Assembly (NCBI GenBank): GCA_030688315.1
Contig: JAUYIT010000008.1
Location: 21,240 to 85,239, forward strand
Source of the DNA: Candidatus Komeilibacteria bacterium
Lineage (GTDB): Bacteria; Patescibacteriota; Patescibacteriia; UBA1558; UBA10009
Length of the DNA stretch: 64,000 bases
Direction: 5' to 3'
The notes below the pieces were generated by a model. It ran no database searches. It saw only the letters and a list, made by a program, of their open reading frames with translations, and was not told where the DNA came from. Position numbers and translations under genes: made by a program. Below, one piece after another: positions 1 through 52,703 of this stretch. Numbering within the stretch: the first letter of the stretch is position 1; every line of letters begins with the position of its first letter.

Positions 1-201
<201 letters not shown>

Positions 202-446: not shown

Positions 447-521
447 TGGTGCCCTGACCAAGAATCGAACTTGGATCTAGACGTTAGGAGTGTCTTGTTC
501 TATCCGTTGAACTATCAGGGC
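447..521 (-). tRNA. tRNA-Arg (anticodon CCU)
   Basis: The rc is GCCCTGA..TCAGGGCACCA with a perfect 7-bp acceptor stem, D-stem GTTC/GAAC, anticodon loop CTCCTAA (CCT), T-loop TTCGATT and an encoded CCA. One A-C mismatch closes the anticodon stem. Confidence 0.8.
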
Positions 522-2334: not shown

Positions 2335-3063
2335 TTATTTGTTAACAATCTCAACTTTATTATCCATTTTTTTAAACACCCAGGTCTGCTGAGCTACGCC
2401 TAAAACCGTAATCACCAGCCAATAAAGGGTTAAGCCGGCCGGCAAAGAGGCGCCGATAAACACGGTAATCAAAGGCATAAAATAAGTCATCTGTTTGTTC
2501 ATGATGGCCATGGTGCTGTTTTTATTCTTGTCATTCTGCGGCTGTCGAGCAAACATGAGTTTGGACTGCCAAAACTGGGACAGACCCGCCAATACAGCCA
2601 TGATAATACTGGGTTCGCTTAAATTAATCATTCCCAAAGAAATGGGATTAATGGTGCCGGGATTATAGATGAACGGATAAACCGCGTCCAAACTGCCATT
2701 GCTTAAACCAACGCTGAAAACTTTATACACGGCAATTAAAAACGGCAACTGCAACAACAAAGGCAGGCAGGAAGCAAACGGACTGACTTTTTCTTTTTTA
2801 TAAAGTTCCATTAAAGCCGGCCCCAGCTTTTGCTTGTCGTCTTTGTATTTTTCCTTAAGTTCGTCAATTTTGGGCTGAATCGCCTGCATGGACCGCTGGG
2901 CTTTGATGGACTGCGAAAAAAATGGCCACAATATTAATTTAACAACCACGGTCAACATAATAATGGCTAAACCGATATCGTGGCCCGGCACAATGTTATA
3001 AAAAAAGACCAGGATGTTATACAACGGCTGGTACAAAACGGTGTGGTAAATAGTTGAGATCAT
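2335..3063 (-). CDS. yidC: membrane protein insertase YidC (short form)
   Basis: Multi-TM translation in the conserved rpmH-rnpA-yidD-yidC order at the origin. Confidence 0.8.
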   Translation of the reverse strand: MISTIYHTVLYQPLYNILVFFYNIVPGHDIGLAIIMLTVVVKLILWPFFSQSIKAQRSMQAIQPKIDELKEKYKDDKQKLGPALMELYKKEKVSPFASCLPLLLQLPFLIAVYKVFSVGLSNGSLDAVYPFIYNPGTINPISLGMINLSEPSIIMAVLAGLSQFWQSKLMFARQPQNDKNKNSTMAIMNKQMTYFMPLITVFIGASLPAGLTLYWLVITVLGVAQQTWVFKKMDNKVEIVNK

Positions 3064-3069
3064 AATAGA

Positions 3070-3300
3070 TTAAACTTGGTCAACGCCGCCTTGGCTGAAC
3101 GGGTTGCATTTTAAAACTCTTTTAATTGATTTAAAAATTCCTTTGGCCAAACCATGCTTCTCAATGGACTGATAGGCGTATTCGGAGCAATGCGGATAAA
3201 AGCGGCAATAGCCGTGCGGATGCTTGTAAGCCAGCCAGCCCGAATCGGGGGAGAGGGTTTTTTGATATAGCCGGATTAATTTGAGAATTGATTTCTTCAT
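3070..3300 (-). CDS. yidD: membrane protein insertion efficiency factor YidD
   Basis: 76 aa with the typical Cys-containing YidD sequence (..HPHGYCRFYPHCSEYA..), plus synteny. Confidence 0.8.
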   Translation of the reverse strand: MKKSILKLIRLYQKTLSPDSGWLAYKHPHGYCRFYPHCSEYAYQSIEKHGLAKGIFKSIKRVLKCNPFSQGGVDQV

Positions 3301-3321: not shown

Positions 3322-3675
3322 CTATTTTTTCAGCGGAAACAGCAACTTGGCTTTATCAAACAATCCGGCCAGGGCTTCTTCCAGTTGCTGATAACTTTTG
3401 CCCACGGCAACCGCTTTGACCAAAATCATCACATCATGCCCCGGCTTGATTTGTTTCAGATTCAACCGAATAACTTCCGTTAATCTTCTTTTGATTAAAT
3501 TGCGGACCACGGCTTTTTTACTCACTTTGGCCGAAATCACAATCCCAAAACGGCTGTGCGCTAAATTATTGGGTAAAACCTTAGCGCTGAATAAATCCAA
3601 AGAAGCTGGCCGGCCTTTGCGGGCCAATAATTTAAAATCCTGTTCTTTGGCCAGGCGATAAGCGGGCTTAAGCAT
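3322..3675 (-). CDS. rnpA: ribonuclease P protein component
   Basis: 117 aa basic protein (..KEQDFKLLARKGRP..), plus synteny. Confidence 0.8.
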   Translation of the reverse strand: MLKPAYRLAKEQDFKLLARKGRPASLDLFSAKVLPNNLAHSRFGIVISAKVSKKAVVRNLIKRRLTEVIRLNLKQIKPGHDVMILVKAVAVGKSYQQLEEALAGLFDKAKLLFPLKK

Positions 3676-3687
3676 TGCTCGGTTAAA

Positions 3688-3828
3688 TTAAACGGAAAGT
3701 TTTTGGCGGCCCTTGGCGCGGCGGCGCTTTATTACCTTGGTGCCGGTTTTGGTAGCCATTCTTTTTCTAAAACCGTGGGTTCTGGCGCGCTTTCTCTTTT
3801 TGGGCTGGTAGGTTCGCTTAGTTGACAT
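3688..3828 (-). CDS. rpmH: 50S ribosomal protein L34
   Basis: rc translation [46 protein letters not shown] is canonical L34. It falls below the ORF-track size cutoff. Confidence 0.9.
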
Positions 3829-4050
3829 ATTTTTTGGTTAATAGAGTTTATATTATTTTCAGCCAAAGGCTGATCCGCCTCTGGCGGAGAATATCTTGAA
3901 TTCTAACAGGATTAGGCGGTTAAGTCAATGAGTTTGACATCGCCGTTCAAATTGGCTAATATTCAGATAATTCAAAAACAGGGTCAATAATCCAGTCGTT
4001 AACCGCGATTGGTTGCTGGCCCTGTTATTTATTTAATAATAATCCTAATT

Positions 4051-4626
4051 ATGCTTGTTTTTATAGACGAATCAGGGATTCATAAACAAACAGATCATTC
4101 TAGCTTTGTTCTTGTTTTTATTGAGGTGAAAGACGAGGCGTTGATTAATGAAAGCATTGAACAAATAGAAAAAGGTTTAAAAATCCAACCATTTCATTGG
4201 GCGGATTTTAGCTCACGCTCGGATTGGAAAATAAGAAAAAAGTTTATCAAAGCAATTTCAATTTTGCCTTTTACTCTAAAATATATTATCGTGAAAAATC
4301 CTATTCTACCGCAGGCCATGCTGCGGTACGCTTTAAACCATTTACTGATTGGGGTTGATATTAAAAAAGTCGTCATTGATGGGCGTCATTCCAGAACCTA
4401 TGAGCAACAATTGAAAACATTATTAAGGCGTTACGGCGTCTCCGTGGATAAATTAAGAGTGGCCAACGATCGGTCGATGCCGGCCTTAAGATTAGCCGAC
4501 GCTTTAGCTGGTTTAATAAGATCATATCATGATAAAAATCCCGATGCCGAAAATCTTTACCAATTGATAGAATCCGCAAATAAAATAACCTCCCACTTGG
4601 AAGTGGGAGGTCAGGCTCACCGCTAG
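4051..4626 (+). CDS. DUF3800 family protein
   Basis: N-terminal MLVFIDESG motif, the hallmark start of DUF3800. An ATG at 4051 is preferred over the upstream TTG. Confidence 0.55.
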   Translation: MLVFIDESGIHKQTDHSSFVLVFIEVKDEALINESIEQIEKGLKIQPFHWADFSSRSDWKIRKKFIKAISILPFTLKYIIVKNPILPQAMLRYALNHLLIGVDIKKVVIDGRHSRTYEQQLKTLLRRYGVSVDKLRVANDRSMPALRLADALAGLIRSYHDKNPDAENLYQLIESANKITSHLEVGGQAHR

Positions 4627-4721
4627 ATGGTGTTTAGCCGCCTTTCCCCTTACGGAGGATTTGTCGCGGGCCTCGTTACTTTTTAATCCTATCATAAGCA
4701 AAAATACTGTCAAGCAAAAAT

Positions 4722-4776
4722 TTGAAAATAAAAAAGAGCCCGTGCCGGATTGTTCAGATGAACTTTCCGACACGGG
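4722..4776 (-). terminator. rho-independent terminator downstream of GC-rich ORF
   Basis: Stem cccgtgccgga/tccgacacggg (11 bp, 1 mismatch), followed on the minus strand by a T-run (gctcttttttatttt). Confidence 0.5.
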
Positions 4777-4835
4777 ACTCAATGTGAGTGGTGGGACGAT
4801 TTGCCGCTAGATCAAAATCTGCATATCGACATGGA

Positions 4836-5210
4836 TCAGCTCGACGCGAGCAAGAGGTCGACCTCCTGACCCTCGATGACGAAGTGATATACTTCATCTA
4901 GGATAGGGTCGCCGTGAAAGTCCTCCTTACTCATGAGAGTGGCCCCCTTCTCCTGTAGGACATCCGCGACATGGGCGAGCAAAGCTCGCCGTGCCGGAAG
5001 TATGTTCTGCCCGGCAATTGGGCCATTGATGAACCCCGTGCCACCCGTAATAGCATTACGAAAGGCCGGGACGCGGAGGGCTTTCATGTGGTCGCTGAGA
5101 CCTCCCTCCAACATCACCGCATTGCCCAAAGCGAAGGAGTGGTTGAGCCCGACTCCATCGAGAACCTCTAGAACACTGACAACGACTTGACTATTTGAGT
5201 GATCTAACAT
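4836..5210 (-). CDS. hypothetical protein in a locally GC-rich (~55%) island; probable foreign gene
   Basis: The ORF starts MLDHSNSQ.. and is preceded by a strong SD (aaggagttgg-ATG), unlike most genes here. GC is far above the ~40% surroundings. No family recognised. Confidence 0.45.
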   Translation of the reverse strand: MLDHSNSQVVVSVLEVLDGVGLNHSFALGNAVMLEGGLSDHMKALRVPAFRNAITGGTGFINGPIAGQNILPARRALLAHVADVLQEKGATLMSKEDFHGDPILDEVYHFVIEGQEVDLLLASS

Positions 5211-5361
5211 CCAACTCCTTTTGTTTGATTTTGGCCTAGCTTTTGCCAAGCACTTTGATTTGTAATGTTCAGTTTAATCAGGAATAATAACTTACTATTC
5301 ACAAAATGTCAAGATATATGACTTATTAAATATACTAATATTAGCCAAAATAAATACAATG

Positions 5362-5380
5362 TTGTCAAAAATATTGACAA
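5362..5380. promoter_or_regulatory. palindromic operator TTGTCAA-aaata-TTGACAA overlapping -35 of trmB-like promoter
   Basis: Perfect 7-bp inverted repeat. TTGACA at 5374-5379 with a tatcat -10-like hexamer about 17 bp downstream; 28 bp upstream of the CDS start. Confidence 0.45.
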
Positions 5381-5408
5381 ATTCAGTCAGATTTGCTATC
5401 ATTCAAAT

Positions 5409-6137
5409 ATGATCGAAGCTAAAATACTACAAGACCTCGGCTTAACCGAAATTGAAGCCAAAATCTATTTGGCCTCCTTGGAATTGGGCACAGAGACAGT
5501 GCTTAAAATTGCCAAACAGGCCCAAGTTAAACGCCCGACCGCTTATGTGGCTTTGGATAATTTATTTGCCAACGGCTTTGTTTCTAAAGTTCAAAAAAAG
5601 GGCACGACCATGTACGCCGCCGAGAGCCCGGAAATAATCAGTAATAAATTCAAAGAAAAGTTAGCTAACTTTAATGATTTAATGCCGTTCTTTGCCGCCA
5701 AATTCAACCGCGGCCCTAAACCTAAAATAAGATACTATGAAGGCGCCCAAACCTTGCTGGACATTTATACCAAAGTTCTCTTTCCTTCAGCGGAAATATA
5801 TTTTTTTGGTACGGACGTGGCTAAAATTAAAGAAAAGCTACCTCAACTGTTTAACTATGGCGTAACGGCTTTGGCCAAAAAATCCGTTAAGCCGATGGAA
5901 ATAGTTTCGTATAACCCAGCGGGAATTGAATACGTCAAAAAATATGCCGCCGGCCGGCCGATCAAACTGATGCCTAAAAGTTTACCGGTATTTGCCGACG
6001 TGGCCATTACTGAAAATAAGATCTTCATTGTTTCTTTGGATAATCTCTTTGGGGTTTTAATTGAATCGGAGGATTTGGCTAAAACCTTCAAAAACTTTTT
6101 TCTGCTGGCCTGGTCGGCCGCGACCACGGTTAAATAA
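5409..6137 (+). CDS. TrmB family transcriptional regulator
   Basis: N-terminal wHTH (LTEIEAKIYLASLELGTETVLKIAKQAQVKRPTAYVALDNL) typical of TrmB-like regulators. Confidence 0.65.
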   Translation: MIEAKILQDLGLTEIEAKIYLASLELGTETVLKIAKQAQVKRPTAYVALDNLFANGFVSKVQKKGTTMYAAESPEIISNKFKEKLANFNDLMPFFAAKFNRGPKPKIRYYEGAQTLLDIYTKVLFPSAEIYFFGTDVAKIKEKLPQLFNYGVTALAKKSVKPMEIVSYNPAGIEYVKKYAAGRPIKLMPKSLPVFADVAITENKIFIVSLDNLFGVLIESEDLAKTFKNFFLLAWSAATTVK

Positions 6138-6297
6138 ACTAAACCCGGCCAAAATTAAATCAACAGGTAATCAACAGCTTATAAACAAACGTTGCCCTGG
6201 TGGGGATATTTAACGTTTTTTTTATTTATGCTAAGATGGAACAACCTTTACAAGAAAAATCGAGTCAAGCTGAGCTTGGCCTAAAAAATAAAAAAAC

Positions 6298-7671
6298 ATG
6301 AACAATGAGCAACTGTGGCAAGCCGTTTTAGGCGAACTGGAGCTGTTAATCAGCAAAGCCAACTTTACCACCTGGTTTAAGAGTACTTTTATAATCTCTT
6401 CAGACAACGAAACCGTGCTGGTGGCCACGCCCAATGCTTTTACCAAAAACTGGCTGGAAAAAAAATATTCCGACCAGCTGCTGCGCGCTTTAAAAAATAT
6501 TACCAGCGACGGGGTTAAAAAAATCAACTTTACCGTGGAAACCAAAAAGCCGATCGCGGGCAAACAAATGGTTGATGCCGTGGCGCCACGATTGAACAGC
6601 CAAACTTCCGCGACCGGTGAAAACACCGACAAGCAGGACATTAACAAGTTCGGCTTAAACCCCAAATACACTTTTGAAAACTTTATCGTGGGCAAAGGCA
6701 ATGAGCTAGCCCACGCCGCCGCCCGGGCCGTAGCCCAAAAGCTGGGCCAGGTTTACAACCCGCTCTTTATTTACGGCGGGGTCGGCTTGGGCAAAACCCA
6801 TTTGGTTCAGGCCGTGGGCAACGAGATCATCAAGAACAACCCCAAACTAAGAATTCTCTATATTAATAGCGAACGCTTTACCAACGATTATGTTCAGGCC
6901 ATTAAATCCGGCCAAACCGAAAGCTTTAAAAAACAGTACCGCACCGTTGACGTGTTGCTGATTGACGATATTCATTTTATGGCCGGCAAGGAGCAGACCC
7001 AGGAAGAGTTCTTCCATACTTTTAACGCTTTGCACCAAAACAACAAGCAGATCATTTTAAGCTCGGACCGGCCGCCTAAAGCCATCCCCGACGTGGAACA
7101 ACGTTTGATTTCGCGCTTTGAATGGGGCATGACCGCTGATGTGAGCTCGCCGGATTTTGAAACCAGAATCGCCATTTTACAGGCCAAATGCCAAGAAAAA
7201 TCCCTTGATCTTTCAGCGGAAATAATTTCCTACCTGGCGGAAAACGTGCAAAACAACGTGCGTGAGCTGGAAGGCGCCTTAAACAGAATTATCGGCGTCC
7301 ACGAGCTTAACAAGAGCGTACCGACCCTGGAATCAACCAAGCAGGTCTTGCAGGCCTTAACCGCTTCCAGCCCCAAAGGCAACTTAACGCCCAAAAAGAT
7401 TATTCAGGCCGTTAGCAGTTATTTTGACGTGTCTATTGAAAACATTGTGGGCGCCTGCCGGCGCAAAGAATTGGTTTTACCAAGACAGATTGTGATGTAT
7501 TTAATGAGGGAAGAAATTAACGCTTCCTACCCGTCCATCGGCCAAGAGCTGGGCGGCCGCGACCACACCACCGCTATTCATGCCTGCAACAAAATTATTG
7601 ACGTGTTAACCAGAGATGAAAAAATGAAAAATGATATTTCCATGATCAAGCAACGTTTGTATCATGCTTAA
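6298..7671 (+). CDS. dnaA: chromosomal replication initiator DnaA
   Basis: Walker A GGVGLGKTHL, an AAA+ core, and a C-terminal DNA-binding domain (..ELGGRDHTTAIHA..). Confidence 0.95.
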   Translation: MNNEQLWQAVLGELELLISKANFTTWFKSTFIISSDNETVLVATPNAFTKNWLEKKYSDQLLRALKNITSDGVKKINFTVETKKPIAGKQMVDAVAPRLNSQTSATGENTDKQDINKFGLNPKYTFENFIVGKGNELAHAAARAVAQKLGQVYNPLFIYGGVGLGKTHLVQAVGNEIIKNNPKLRILYINSERFTNDYVQAIKSGQTESFKKQYRTVDVLLIDDIHFMAGKEQTQEEFFHTFNALHQNNKQIILSSDRPPKAIPDVEQRLISRFEWGMTADVSSPDFETRIAILQAKCQEKSLDLSAEIISYLAENVQNNVRELEGALNRIIGVHELNKSVPTLESTKQVLQALTASSPKGNLTPKKIIQAVSSYFDVSIENIVGACRRKELVLPRQIVMYLMREEINASYPSIGQELGGRDHTTAIHACNKIIDVLTRDEKMKNDISMIKQRLYHA

Positions 7672-7941
7672 TATGTTGGTTAAAAGTTTGAGGAAAAGTT
7701 TTTGATAACTTGGTGGAGAAAAATAAATTTACTGTTTAAAACTATTCCACTTGTACACAGTAAATTAAACCGCGCCAAAGTTATCCCAAAGTTATTAAAA
7801 AATAATCACAGGAGTTAAGTAAATTAATCAACAAGAACCAACTGGAAATCGCCAATTGGTTATTGCCTAAAATTTACTTTTCAACTTATCAACTCCCCTT
7901 ATTACTATTATCATCAATTATATATTTAAAAAGAATTGAAT
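7672..7941. promoter_or_regulatory. candidate oriC region (dnaA-dnaN intergenic, AT-rich)
   Basis: Conserved location. Degenerate DnaA-box-like 9-mers (gttatccca; repeated tgtacacag) but no perfect TTATCCACA. Confidence 0.25.
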
Positions 7942-9051
7942 ATGAAATTCACATGTACACAGGAAAATTTAAATAAAGGTTTGGGCATTGTGAGCCATAT
8001 TGCCAATCGCAATATTACTTTGCCGATTTTAAATAACGTGGCCATTAAAGCCGAGGGTGGGGTAATTGCTTTAAGCACCACTAATTTGGAAATTGGCATT
8101 ACCGCCAGTGTGCGCGGTAAAATCGATCAGCCGGGCAGGTTTACGGTGCAGGCCCGTTTAATCGCCGACTACGTCAATTTACTGCCCAAGGAAAACGTGG
8201 AAGTGGAATTAAATGGCGACGTGCTGCATCTTAAATGCGGCAATCATAAAACCAGTGTTAAGGGTGTGAGTTCCGAGGACTTTCCAACTATTCCGGAAAT
8301 GGAGAGTGAGGCCACCATCAGTTTAAAAACCGCCGAGCTAAAAGAGGCCTTGGCCCAGGTGATTTTTGCCGTTTCTGTTGATGAAACTAGGCCTGAAATC
8401 AGCGGTGTGTTATTTTATTTTAACAATAAAACTTTAACCATCGTAGGCACTGATAGCTATCGTTTGGCTGAAAAAAAACTGACCGTTAAAAGCGATTTAA
8501 CTACCGAAAAAAGTTTGATTATTCCTTTAAGAACCTTACAGGAAGTTTACCGGATTTTAAGCGATGATGGCACTGCGGAAATTGAAATTTTAATTAATTC
8601 CAACCAAATTTTATTCAAGATTGCCGGCGAAGTGGAGTTAACTTCGCGCTTAGTGGAAGGCCAATACCCCGATTATCAGCAGATTATTCCGGGCGATTGC
8701 CGCACCAAAGCCAAGGTTAAAACCGCTGAATTTATCAGGGTAATTAAAAGTGCCTCGCTGTTTTGCAAGCCGGGCATTAATGATGTTAAACTTAATTTTG
8801 ACCTAACCAAAGGCACGTTGGTGGTTAGCTCTTTAAACAGCGCGGTGGGTGAAAACGTGGCCACGGTGGAAGTGGATGGCACCGGCGACAATAACGAGGC
8901 GGTGTTTAATTACCGTTATTTGTTGGACGGGCTTAATAATTTGGATAGCGCTGAAGTCAGTGTGGAATTGGTTTCCGAAAGCGCGCCCGGTATTTTGCGC
9001 CCGGTTAATGGCGGCGATTATCTTTACATCATCATGCCTATTAGGCAGTAA
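7942..9051 (+). CDS. dnaN: DNA polymerase III beta sliding clamp
   Basis: Three-domain clamp translation (MKFTCTQENLNKGL...). An ATG at 7942 is preferred over the TTG at 7936. Confidence 0.9.
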   Translation: MKFTCTQENLNKGLGIVSHIANRNITLPILNNVAIKAEGGVIALSTTNLEIGITASVRGKIDQPGRFTVQARLIADYVNLLPKENVEVELNGDVLHLKCGNHKTSVKGVSSEDFPTIPEMESEATISLKTAELKEALAQVIFAVSVDETRPEISGVLFYFNNKTLTIVGTDSYRLAEKKLTVKSDLTTEKSLIIPLRTLQEVYRILSDDGTAEIEILINSNQILFKIAGEVELTSRLVEGQYPDYQQIIPGDCRTKAKVKTAEFIRVIKSASLFCKPGINDVKLNFDLTKGTLVVSSLNSAVGENVATVEVDGTGDNNEAVFNYRYLLDGLNNLDSAEVSVELVSESAPGILRPVNGGDYLYIIMPIRQ

Positions 9052-52450: not shown

Positions 52451-52703
52451 AATACATTTTTGGTTAATTAATAAATTTGCGGAAAACCAAAAAGTTCCCC
52501 GCTAGCCCAGGCTTGTTTAAGGCCCCATACCCGTTTCCAGATATGACCGCAAAGGTAAGCTAAACGAGGAACTCCTCGTAACCTTTGCGGATTTACAACC
52601 ATGCCCGTTGAAACTCAACGAGTTTAGGCTATCTAAATTGTGCCTTTATAATAGCTAAAAATAAGAAAAAATGGAAGTCCTAGTTACCGACAGGTTACCA
52701 ACT

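What the first reader, a model, noticed from the sequence alone, without database searches (positions are those of the whole stretch)
3829..6297. ~2.4 kb insertion between rpmH and dnaA carrying DUF3800, a GC-rich foreign ORF and a TrmB regulator
rpmH and dnaA are normally adjacent and divergent at bacterial origins. Here they are separated by a DUF3800 gene, a ~55% GC segment (about 4610..5230) in a ~40% GC genome, and a TrmB-family regulator with a palindromic operator. The GC-rich segment encodes a 124-aa ORF with a strong AAGGAG SD (atypical for this genome) and its own terminator. The short direct repeat ccgctagat occurs at 4619 and 4805.
Basis: seen in the sequence. Interest (0 to 1): 0.5.

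Follow-up and report, generated by a model that had tools for sequence, protein, structure and literature searches.

The report
Nuclease-plus-small-RNA module beside the replication origin

Summary
rpmH and dnaA are 2469 bp apart here, against about 150-450 bp in roughly 40 of 45 CPR relatives. The gap holds DUF3800, a 124-aa ORF that is the most GC-rich of 63 ORFs in the window, and a TrmB-like gene.

It has its own promoter and terminator and overlaps the DUF3800 stop codon in antisense. The same arrangement occurs in 80 of 80 related DUF3800 loci, with strong covariation.

The gap is not one insertion. Against a sister genome (L009):
- Backbone genes, including TrmB, differ at dS 0.7-1.2.
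- The ORF124 patch is 97-100% identical (dS 0.03).
- The DUF3800 and RNA cassette has been replaced by a non-orthologous one.

ORF124 belongs to a tiny family without a Pfam match. It has a nucleotidyltransferase-like fold, is sometimes fused to a sigma-70 region 4 domain, and shows unsaturated dS (0.5-0.6) to Giovannonibacteria and Kaiserbacteria copies. The 9-mer repeat is at chance level.

Most likely the locus is a small variable islet. Its core is a nuclease plus cognate-RNA module, possibly toxin-antitoxin or defence-like; that mechanism is inferred, not shown. It is a new member of a known kind, of moderate interest.

The parts
3688..3828 (-). rpmH (L34), left anchor. The predicted rpmH promoter is at 3900-3928 (-).
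   Evidence: Pfam PF00468, E 2e-22; promoter scan
3934..3962 (+). Predicted promoter of DUF3800 (TTGACA-17-TAATAT). It lies in an intergenic stretch (about 3930-4035) that is roughly 95% identical to L009.
4051..4626 (+). DUF3800 gene (191 aa), an RNase HII-like fold with invariant D6, E7, D110 and D150. Its last codons run through the RNA terminator and 18 nt into the RNA.
4586..4613 (-). Intrinsic terminator of the small RNA (12-bp stem, then UUUUAUUU to about 4576). It lies inside the DUF3800 coding sequence for the last beta-strand.
4609..4679 (-). DUF3800-II RNA core: a junction of three helices with conserved unpaired AACAAG, GACAAAUCC, GGGAAAG, CUA and CUGACC.
   Evidence: Rfam RF02961, 38.8 bits, E 1.2e-5; covariation across 84 copies
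4686..4713 (-). Promoter of the small RNA (TTGACA-16-TAGGAT, with TG). The -10 box ends 7 nt before the RNA model start. Identity with L009 breaks here, marking the cassette boundary.
4724..4776 (-). Terminator of ORF124 (10-bp stem at 4767-4776/4739-4748, then a U-run).
   Evidence: Read from the sequence; conserved in L009 with a U-G to U-A change
4836..5210 (-). ORF124, with its SD AAGGAG at 5215-5220. It is a small protein with a nucleotidyltransferase-like fold, belongs to a rare family without a Pfam match, and was recently transferred horizontally. It is not annotated in the deposited MAG.
4690..5180 (.). Patch of 97-100% identity to L009, inside a backbone that is 75-90% identical.
5284..5312 (-). 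Predicted promoter of ORF124 (TTGACA-17-TATTAT).
5362..5402 (+). The palindrome TTGTCAAAAATATTGACAA (5362-5380) overlaps the -35 box of the TrmB promoter (5374-5402). The -10 box ends 6 nt before the ATG, so the mRNA is probably leaderless.
   Evidence: conserved in L009
5409..6137 (+). TrmB-type winged-helix regulator (242 aa), at backbone-level divergence from L009 (89% aa, dS 0.70).
6298..7671 (+). dnaA, right anchor.

Best explanation
The rpmH-dnaA gap is a small variable islet assembled in steps, not a single insertion.

1. Core module. Its core is a self-contained two-part module. One part is a DUF3800 nuclease with an RNase HII-like fold and an intact D-E-D-D site. The other is a cognate small RNA of about 100 nt (DUF3800-II), transcribed from its own strong promoter on the opposite strand. 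The RNA ends at a terminator embedded in the last codons of the nuclease gene.

2. How the module probably works (inferred). The RNA is the obligate partner of the nuclease. Most probably it acts as an inhibitor, as an antitoxin would, or as a cofactor that binds the protein through its conserved unpaired nucleotides. Antisense pairing with the 3' end of the nuclease mRNA would give a second level of control. The module behaves like an addiction or defence cassette: it is multi-copy, its neighbourhoods vary, and whole cassettes are exchanged between strains at the same site.

3. ORF124. Next to the module lies ORF124, a rare small protein with a nucleotidyltransferase-like fold. It entered by recent horizontal transfer among CPR bacteria. 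It is probably a regulatory or small-molecule-handling domain, because some relatives are fused to a sigma-70 region 4 DNA-binding domain.

4. TrmB. The TrmB-type gene is an older, vertically inherited resident that probably represses its own promoter through the palindrome.

Shown: the anatomy, the RNA-gene association, the folds and the three evolutionary histories.
Inferred: binding of the RNA to the protein, the toxin-antitoxin or defence role, and the function of ORF124.
For: RNA:
- The Rfam DUF3800-II hit lies exactly at the DUF3800 stop codon.
- Nine of nine sampled relatives score above the gathering threshold, all in antisense.
- A clade model finds the RNA in 79 of 80 metagenomic DUF3800 loci, always on the opposite strand; the 80th is cut by its contig end.
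- 93.9% of cells are paired, and all 18 pairs show double changes. Slid controls give 20-53%.
- Every copy has a TTGACA-N17-TAnAAT promoter just upstream and a hairpin with a U-run just downstream.
- No third conserved neighbour was found.

Nuclease:
- D6, E7, D110 and D150 are invariant.

Cassette behaviour:
- The DUF3800 in L009 is non-orthologous; its best matches are 52-53% to other clades.
- The swap limits are the DUF3800 start and the RNA -10 box.
- A 66% paralogue lies 15 genes away on the same contig.
- L116 carries two modules in tandem. Extra RNA copies without a gene occur in L009 and L137. No gene lacks an RNA.

Literature:
- DUF3800 is an effector of type VII retrons (PMC7736814).
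- It is an accessory gene of Cas12a2/a3 and Cas13 loci (PMC10910872, PMC13594972, PMC12669027, bioRxiv 10.64898/2026.08.25.746378).
- Eleven different RNA motifs accompany it, with function unknown (PMC5737381).

ORF124:
- dN/dS is 0.1-0.5. dS is 0.03 to L009, against a backbone of 0.7-1.2. dS is 0.5-0.6 to other CPR classes.
- There are only 24 cluster representatives among 1.84 billion.
- One relative carries a Sigma70_r4 fusion.
Against: - The window's RNA copy scores 38.8 bits, below Rfam's gathering score of 43.2, and its third helix has one or two mispairs, so it may be decaying.
- Nothing here shows that the RNA binds the protein or that the protein is toxic.
- PADLOC has no model matching any of the three proteins.
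- The RNA is a single unit on the opposite strand, unlike type III antitoxins. The protein is a 191-aa enzyme, unlike type I toxins.
- ORF124 lacks a recognisable hG[GS]...D.D nucleotidyltransferase signature and matches no NTase family in Pfam, NCBIfam or PDB sequence searches. It may not be an enzyme.
- The 97-100% patch could be a homologous-recombination patch between sister populations rather than a fresh acquisition.
Confidence: 0.5

Rival explanations
1. The three genes are an ancestral, vertically inherited part of the origin region in this lineage, and nothing was acquired.
For: L009, a sister genome with 75-90% backbone identity, has the same gene order: dnaA, TrmB, ORF124, DUF3800, rnpA. 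TrmB diverges at backbone level (dS 0.70).
Against: - About 40 of 45 CPR relatives have rpmH directly next to dnaA.
- ORF124 has a dS of 0.03 against a backbone of 0.7-1.2, and a lower dS to other CPR classes than the backbone has to the sister genome.
- The DUF3800 cassette is non-orthologous between the two genomes.
- ORF124 has atypical GC and an atypical SD.
Confidence: 0.1
2. The small RNA is purely an antisense regulator of the DUF3800 mRNA, as in type I-like systems with convergent 3' overlap (txpA/RatA, bsrG/SR4). No RNA-protein complex forms.
For: The RNA is always convergent. It overlaps the gene's 3' end or lies 7-52 nt beyond it. No plus-strand terminator separates the gene from the RNA, so the mRNA probably reads through the RNA gene (sequence; scan).
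Against: - Invariant unpaired nucleotides and covarying stems show selection on a folded RNA, not on complementarity alone.
- Extra RNA copies are found with no gene opposite them (L009b, L137).
Confidence: 0.2
3. The RNA is a guide or scaffold for an RNA-directed RNase H-fold nuclease. This would parallel the HEARO and IS605-orfB RNAs, which proved to be the omega RNAs of IscB and TnpB.
For: A nuclease with an RNase H-like fold has a conserved structured RNA at its gene's 3' end. Other motifs from the same kind of screen were later shown to be guide RNAs (my own knowledge, not tested here).
Against: The transcript is bounded tightly by its promoter (the -10 box ends 7 nt before the conserved 5' end) and its terminator (the stem starts inside the conserved CUGACC). 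No variable segment of fixed length is left that could act as a guide. The RNA is on the opposite strand. No transposon ends were found.
Confidence: 0.1
4. The GC-rich segment is an assembly or binning chimera, or a non-coding structured RNA rather than a gene.
For: GC jumps locally to 55-59%. NCBI's annotation of the MAG has no protein there: the flanking accessions MDP2586253 and MDP2586254 are consecutive.
Against: - The same junctions appear in independent assemblies, namely the Logan contigs behind L009 and P0074.
- dN/dS is 0.1-0.5 across six homologues.
- The alignment has 19 invariant columns.
- The AF2 model is confident.
- No Rfam match falls within ORF124 or the GC-rich stretch (4800-5210); the only Rfam match in the interval is the DUF3800-II RNA at 4609-4679.
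Confidence: 0.03

Closest known systems
DUF3800-II RNA motif (Rfam RF02961; Weinberg et al. 2017, PMC5737381)
   Same: Same consensus sequence and three-helix structure, and it lies next to a DUF3800 gene.
   Different: The window copy scores 38.8 bits, below the family's gathering score of 43.2, and has a weakened third helix. This work adds several points that I did not find stated in the main text of the source paper:
- a constant convergent orientation;
- a dedicated promoter and terminator;
- a terminator embedded in the coding sequence in one clade;
- cassette exchange between strains.
DUF3800 (PF12686) proteins: type VII retron effectors and Cas12a2/a3 or Cas13 accessory proteins
   Same: Same domain, an RNase H2-like fold and an N-terminal D-E motif (PMC7736814, PMC10910872).
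   Different: This is a stand-alone 191-aa protein with no TPR domain. There is no reverse transcriptase and no CRISPR locus nearby. Its partner is a small RNA rather than msDNA or a Cas effector.
Type III (ToxIN) and type I (txpA/RatA, bsrG/SR4) toxin-antitoxin systems
   Same: A protein gene is tightly coupled to a small non-coding RNA. The 3' ends are convergent and overlapping, as in the Bacillus type I pairs. Orphan RNA copies are tolerated. Several divergent paralogues occur per genome.
   Different: There are no tandem RNA repeats upstream on the same strand, as type III has. The protein is not a small membrane peptide, as type I toxins are. Toxicity is untested.
Pol-beta-like nucleotidyltransferase fold proteins (MNT, MenT/AbiEii, small alarmone synthetases, RsfS)
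   Different: There is no sequence-level match to any such family and no clear hG[GS]/DxD signature. It has no HEPN or AbiEi partner. Some members are fused to Sigma70_r4.
TrmB-family transcription regulators
   Same: The N-terminal winged helix matches PF01978 above its cut-off, and a palindrome lies in the gene's own promoter.
   Different: It is far below the NCBIfam equivalog cut-offs for sugar-sensing TrmB (31.7 against 650 bits). The C-terminal 160 aa are unassigned.

Membership tests
DUF3800-II RNA (RF02961) | Covariance-model score at or above the curated gathering score (43.2 bits) | tested here: not met
   The window copy scores 38.8 bits, E 1.2e-5 over 2.5 kb. Copies in 9 related loci score 49.9-73.9 bits.
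DUF3800-II RNA (RF02961) | Consensus helices formed and conserved unpaired nucleotides present | tested here: met
   The full-length alignment covers model positions 1-69. P1 and P2 are intact and P3 has two mispairs. GACAAAUCC, GGGAAAG, CUA and CUGACC are all present. Family-wide covariation is shown.
DUF3800-II RNA (RF02961) | Located next to a DUF3800 gene | tested here: met
   It overlaps the DUF3800 stop codon by 18 nt in antisense, with the same geometry as 27 other unique loci.
DUF3800 (PF12686) | Pfam score above the gathering score | tested here: met
   33.5 bits against 21, covering profile positions 1-147 of 149.
DUF3800 (PF12686) | RNase H-like fold with conserved acidic residues (N-terminal D-E and a C-terminal D) | tested here: met
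Type VII retron | Reverse transcriptase gene and msr/msd RNA adjacent to DUF3800 | tested here: not met
   All ORFs in 3829-6297 are accounted for, and none is a reverse transcriptase. There is no recurrent neighbour in 80 loci.
Type III toxin-antitoxin (ToxIN-like) | Tandem RNA repeats upstream of the toxin gene on the same strand, separated from it by a terminator | tested here: not met
   A single RNA unit lies downstream on the opposite strand.
Type III toxin-antitoxin (ToxIN-like) | The protein is toxic and is neutralised by binding the RNA | not testable with these tools
   This needs expression and binding experiments.
Pol-beta-like nucleotidyltransferase superfamily (ORF124) | Nucleotidyltransferase core fold | tested here: met
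Pol-beta-like nucleotidyltransferase superfamily (ORF124) | Signature hG[GS]x9-13Dh[DE]h, or a sequence match to a member family | tested here: not met
   No hit in Pfam or NCBIfam, in a PDB profile search, or among 1.84 billion representatives beyond its own 24. The invariant residues E35-G-G..D40 and D105-E106 do not fit the canonical pattern by inspection.
TrmB family | N-terminal TrmB winged-helix domain above the Pfam cut-off | tested here: met
   54.2 bits against 25.6.
TrmB family | Orthology to sugar-sensing TrmB or TrmBL1 | tested here: not met
   NCBIfam gives 31.7 and 26.5 bits against cut-offs of 650 and 600.
Transposon, integrative element or prophage remnant | Integrase or transposase, terminal inverted repeats, target-site duplication | tested here: not met
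   No such gene was found. Only short, chance-level repeats flank the block.

The most novel reading that the evidence does not exclude
DUF3800 with its dedicated small RNA is a new class of RNA-protein conflict module, in which an RNase HII-like toxin or effector is held by a structured RNA. The RNA's terminator doubles as coding sequence for the enzyme's last strand. Whole cassettes are exchanged at fixed chromosomal sites. In some lineages the RNA promoter is placed under DnaA control: an exact DnaA box lies 39-53 nt upstream of the RNA's 5' end in 6 of 67-71 unique loci. That would tie activation of the nuclease to replication status. Its position beside dnaA in this genome would then not be accidental.
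Probability: 0.15. Interest if true: 0.7.

Novelty: new member of a known kind. Interest (0 to 1): 0.4.

Why it matters
DUF3800 keeps appearing in retrons and in Cas12 and Cas13 loci, and it is accompanied by eleven unrelated RNA motifs, yet neither the protein nor any of the RNAs has a known function. This locus and its 80 relatives define a minimal, cleanly bounded version: one promoter, one RNA of about 100 nt, one terminator and one 190-aa enzyme. That is a convenient starting point for experiments.

The mosaic comparison with a sister genome also gives a clear case of gene flow between CPR lineages. It reveals a rare protein family with a nucleotidyltransferase-like fold and no Pfam match, which the deposited annotation of this MAG missed. 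None of this overturns current views, and the RNA-gene association itself was published in 2017.

Tried and rejected
- A second RNA copy or relic at the 'ccgctagat' repeat: a full-model scan of 3800-6300 found only the copy at 4609-4679. About 11 such 9-mer pairs are expected by chance.
- ORF124 and DUF3800 as one system: no DUF3800-II RNA occurs in any ORF124-homologue locus, and no ORF124 occurs in 80 DUF3800 loci.
- TrmB and ORF124 as a conserved pair: the adjacent TrmB in Kaiserbacteria matches only over the HTH (40% over 92 aa). TrmB-like genes are no more frequent near DUF3800 loci than in the origin loci.
- Origin association of the module: none of 80 DUF3800 loci has dnaA or rpmH nearby.
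- Flanking repeats or mobile-element genes: none convincing.
- Defence-system models: PADLOC had no hit for DUF3800 or ORF124.
- Sequence-level identification of ORF124: Pfam, NCBIfam, PHROGs, a PDB profile search and an exhaustive HMM search all failed to reach beyond the family itself.
- The afdb50 fold library was unavailable.
- The look-up of the paralogue P0016's context failed.
- The supplementary text of Weinberg 2017 is not held.
- DnaA boxes in the window: there is no exact box, and one-mismatch boxes occur at the chance rate.
Full report
**What is there**

The left part of the window reads as follows:

| Feature | Coordinates | Strand |
|---|---|---|
| yidC | 2335-3063 | - |
| yidD | 3070-3300 | - |
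| rnpA | 3322-3675 | - |
| rpmH | 3688-3828 | - |
| DUF3800 | 4051-4626 | + |
| 124-aa ORF ('ORF124') | 4836-5210 | - |
| TrmB-type gene | 5409-6137 | + |
| dnaA | 6298-7671 | + |
| dnaN | 7936-9051 | + |

Exact look-ups place the window in a 119,830-bp contig of a Candidatus Komeilibacteria MAG. The GC peak is real but narrower than stated, at 4800-5200 with 55-59% GC. ORF124 is 55.4% GC, the highest of 63 ORFs (mean 42.4%, sd 5.2). Its AAGGAG Shine-Dalgarno is unusual here, since 59 of 63 ORFs have no such motif. The 9-mer ccgctagat does occur twice, at 4620 and 4804, but a pair like that is expected by chance in 2.5 kb. A full covariance-model scan finds nothing at the second site.

An Rfam scan of the interval gives one hit. 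It is DUF3800-II RNA (RF02961) at 4609-4679 on the minus strand, full length, at 38.8 bits and E 1.2e-5, just under the curated threshold of 43.2.

The hit sits exactly where the family is supposed to sit, against a DUF3800 gene. I fetched 80 metagenomic loci encoding relatives of this DUF3800 (39-60% identity).
- Rfam finds the RNA above threshold in 9 of 9 loci sampled.
- A clade-specific model finds it in 79 of 80. The 80th is cut by its contig end inside the RNA.
- All 81 copies lie on the strand opposite the gene.
- On 69 distinct sequences, 93.9% of cells form standard pairs and all 18 pairs show compensatory double changes. Sliding the partners by one to three columns drops pairing to 20-53%.

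Every copy is preceded by a near-consensus TTGACA-N17-TAnAAT promoter, whose -10 box ends a few bases before the conserved 5' end. Every copy is followed at once by a GC hairpin and a U-run. In the window these elements are at 4686-4713 and 4586-4613.

In 27 unique loci, including this one, the DUF3800 reading frame runs through that terminator and 18 nt into the RNA. The hairpin therefore also encodes the enzyme's last beta-strand and the conserved tail ...KITxQLxGGQ. No other gene recurs next to the pair. The unit is thus one enzyme gene plus one convergent RNA gene, about 0.8 kb in all.

**The proteins**

- **ORF124.** It has no hit in Pfam, NCBIfam, PHROGs or PADLOC.
  - It is a real gene. 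Fourteen homologues share 19 invariant columns, and dN/dS is 0.1-0.5.
  - There is no sequence-level link to those families and no canonical signature.
  - An exhaustive profile search of 1.84 billion cluster representatives returns only 24 proteins.
  - Several members carry an N-terminal extension of about 75-90 aa. In one of them it is a Sigma-70 region 4 domain (PF04545, E 5.5e-17).
  - The deposited annotation skips this gene: the flanking proteins have consecutive accessions.
- **TrmB-type protein.** It matches only through its winged helix and is no orthologue of sugar-sensing TrmB.

**Is it an insertion?**

Using DnaA, I retrieved 80 genomic loci. In the 45 or so CPR loci (DnaA 44-70% identical), rpmH and dnaA are almost always adjacent and divergent, 150-450 bp apart. 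None of the three genes lies between them. Rare exceptions carry other cargo, for example a 553-aa membrane protein in L040. The 2469-bp gap here is therefore derived.

One sister genome, L009 (a Logan contig), has the same gene order. Comparing it with the window base by base shows three histories:

| Segment | Window coordinates | Comparison with L009 |
|---|---|---|
| Backbone genes and TrmB | outside the two segments below | 75-90% identical; dS 0.70-1.20 |
| ORF124 patch | about 4690-5180 | 97-100% identical; dS 0.03 |
| DUF3800 and RNA cassette | about 4058-4688 | about 54% identical |

The L009 DUF3800 is closest (52-53%) to proteins of other clades, and the window's protein is not among its top 15 matches. 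The cassette has therefore been replaced. The breakpoints fall at the DUF3800 start codon and at the -10 box of the RNA promoter.

L009 also carries a second, gene-less RNA copy in tandem. The window's genome has a 66% paralogue of DUF3800 fifteen genes away.

ORF124's synonymous divergence from the Giovannonibacteria and Kaiserbacteria copies is 0.5-0.6. That is lower than the backbone divergence between the two sister genomes, and nucleotide similarity stops at the ORF ends. This indicates fairly recent transfer across distant CPR lineages. No integrase, transposase or meaningful flanking repeat is present.

**How it probably works**

The following points are shown:
- a nuclease with an RNase HII-like fold and an intact active site;
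- a highly conserved folded RNA that is always transcribed towards it from a strong promoter;
- a strict one-to-one association;
- tolerance of extra RNA copies, but never a gene without an RNA;
- several divergent copies per genome;
- exchange of whole cassettes between strains.

The RNA has invariant unpaired stretches and no free variable segment between promoter and terminator, which argues against a guide function.

My best inference is an RNA-protein pair in which the RNA binds and restrains, or enables, the nuclease. Antisense overlap with the mRNA's 3' end would act as a second brake. The module would serve as an addiction or defence cassette. This fits the published occurrence of DUF3800 as a retron type VII effector and as an accessory gene of Cas12a2/a3 and Cas13 loci (PMC7736814, PMC10910872, PMC13594972, PMC12669027, bioRxiv 10.64898/2026.08.25.746378). 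None of these papers establishes a function. Weinberg et al. explicitly offered no hypothesis for the RNAs (PMC5737381). I put the toxin-antitoxin or defence mechanism at roughly one in three, and the anatomy at better than nine in ten.

ORF124 is most simply read as a small ligand-handling or regulatory domain that travels alone or fused to a DNA-binding domain. The TrmB-type gene probably represses itself through the palindrome over its -35 box. I found no evidence that the three units work together.

**Verdict**

The 'single insertion' reading is not. The key feature is a known Rfam motif with unknown function. The locus is a new, slightly degenerate member of a known kind, sitting in a small mosaic islet at an unusual position.

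Noticed in passing
L108, L109, L110, L138, L160, L177 (39-53 nt upstream of each DUF3800-II RNA 5' end): An exact DnaA box (TTATCCACA) sits just upstream of the -35 box of the RNA promoter in 6 of 67-71 unique loci. The rest of those loci hold 4 exact boxes in 314 kb. Each is a single box, not an oriC-like cluster. The window's own copy has none.
   Followed up: partly
window 52509-52630 (-): LOOT RNA (RF03000) at 73.6 bits, well above its gathering score. This is another Weinberg-2017 motif of unknown function in the same window.
   Followed up: no
window, all 63 ORFs of at least 100 aa: 59 of 63 ORFs have no Shine-Dalgarno-like motif in positions -22 to -4, so the genome appears largely SD-independent. 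The TrmB promoter's -10 box ends 6 nt before the ATG (5402 against 5409), which suggests a leaderless mRNA.
   Followed up: partly
window 4836-5210 (-): ORF124 has no protein record in the deposited NCBI annotation of this MAG. The flanking genes are MDP2586253.1 and MDP2586254.1. The sequence appears only in Logan-derived gene calls.
   Followed up: yes
L009 2686-2756 and 2818-2890 (+); L116 1458-2069 and 2215-2820; L137 902-970: There are tandem or orphan copies of the module. L009 has two RNA genes in a row, each with its own promoter and terminator, but one DUF3800. L116 has two complete DUF3800 and RNA modules in tandem. L137 has an extra RNA 2 kb from its module.
   Followed up: partly
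window 3866-3900: A 35-nt insertion relative to L009 lies in the rpmH leader. It consists of two short hairpins (ccgcc-aga-ggcgg and cagcc-ttt-ggctg). The surrounding intergenic region is about 95% identical between the two genomes, higher than the coding backbone.
   Followed up: no
L040 6127-7788; L038: In two other CPR genomes the rpmH-dnaA gap is about 1.9 kb. In L040 it holds a 553-aa multi-pass membrane protein, so the site occasionally accepts other cargo.
   Followed up: partly
window 3952-3963 and 5337-5348: A 12-nt perfect inverted repeat (TTGGCTAATATT / AATATTAGCCAA) brackets the DUF3800, RNA and ORF124 block, and its right arm is conserved in L009. It is marginal statistically, at roughly 0.2 expected or more in AT-rich DNA. 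It might be a regulator site.
   Followed up: no
window 125-201 and 447-521 (-): tRNA-Ala(GGC) and tRNA-Arg(CCT) lie at the left edge of the window.
   Followed up: no
L009 512-591 (+): There is a sub-threshold Rfam hit to AsdA, the 'antisense RNA of dnaA mRNA' (37.9 bits against 52), inside the dnaA gene of the sister genome. It is probably chance.
   Followed up: no
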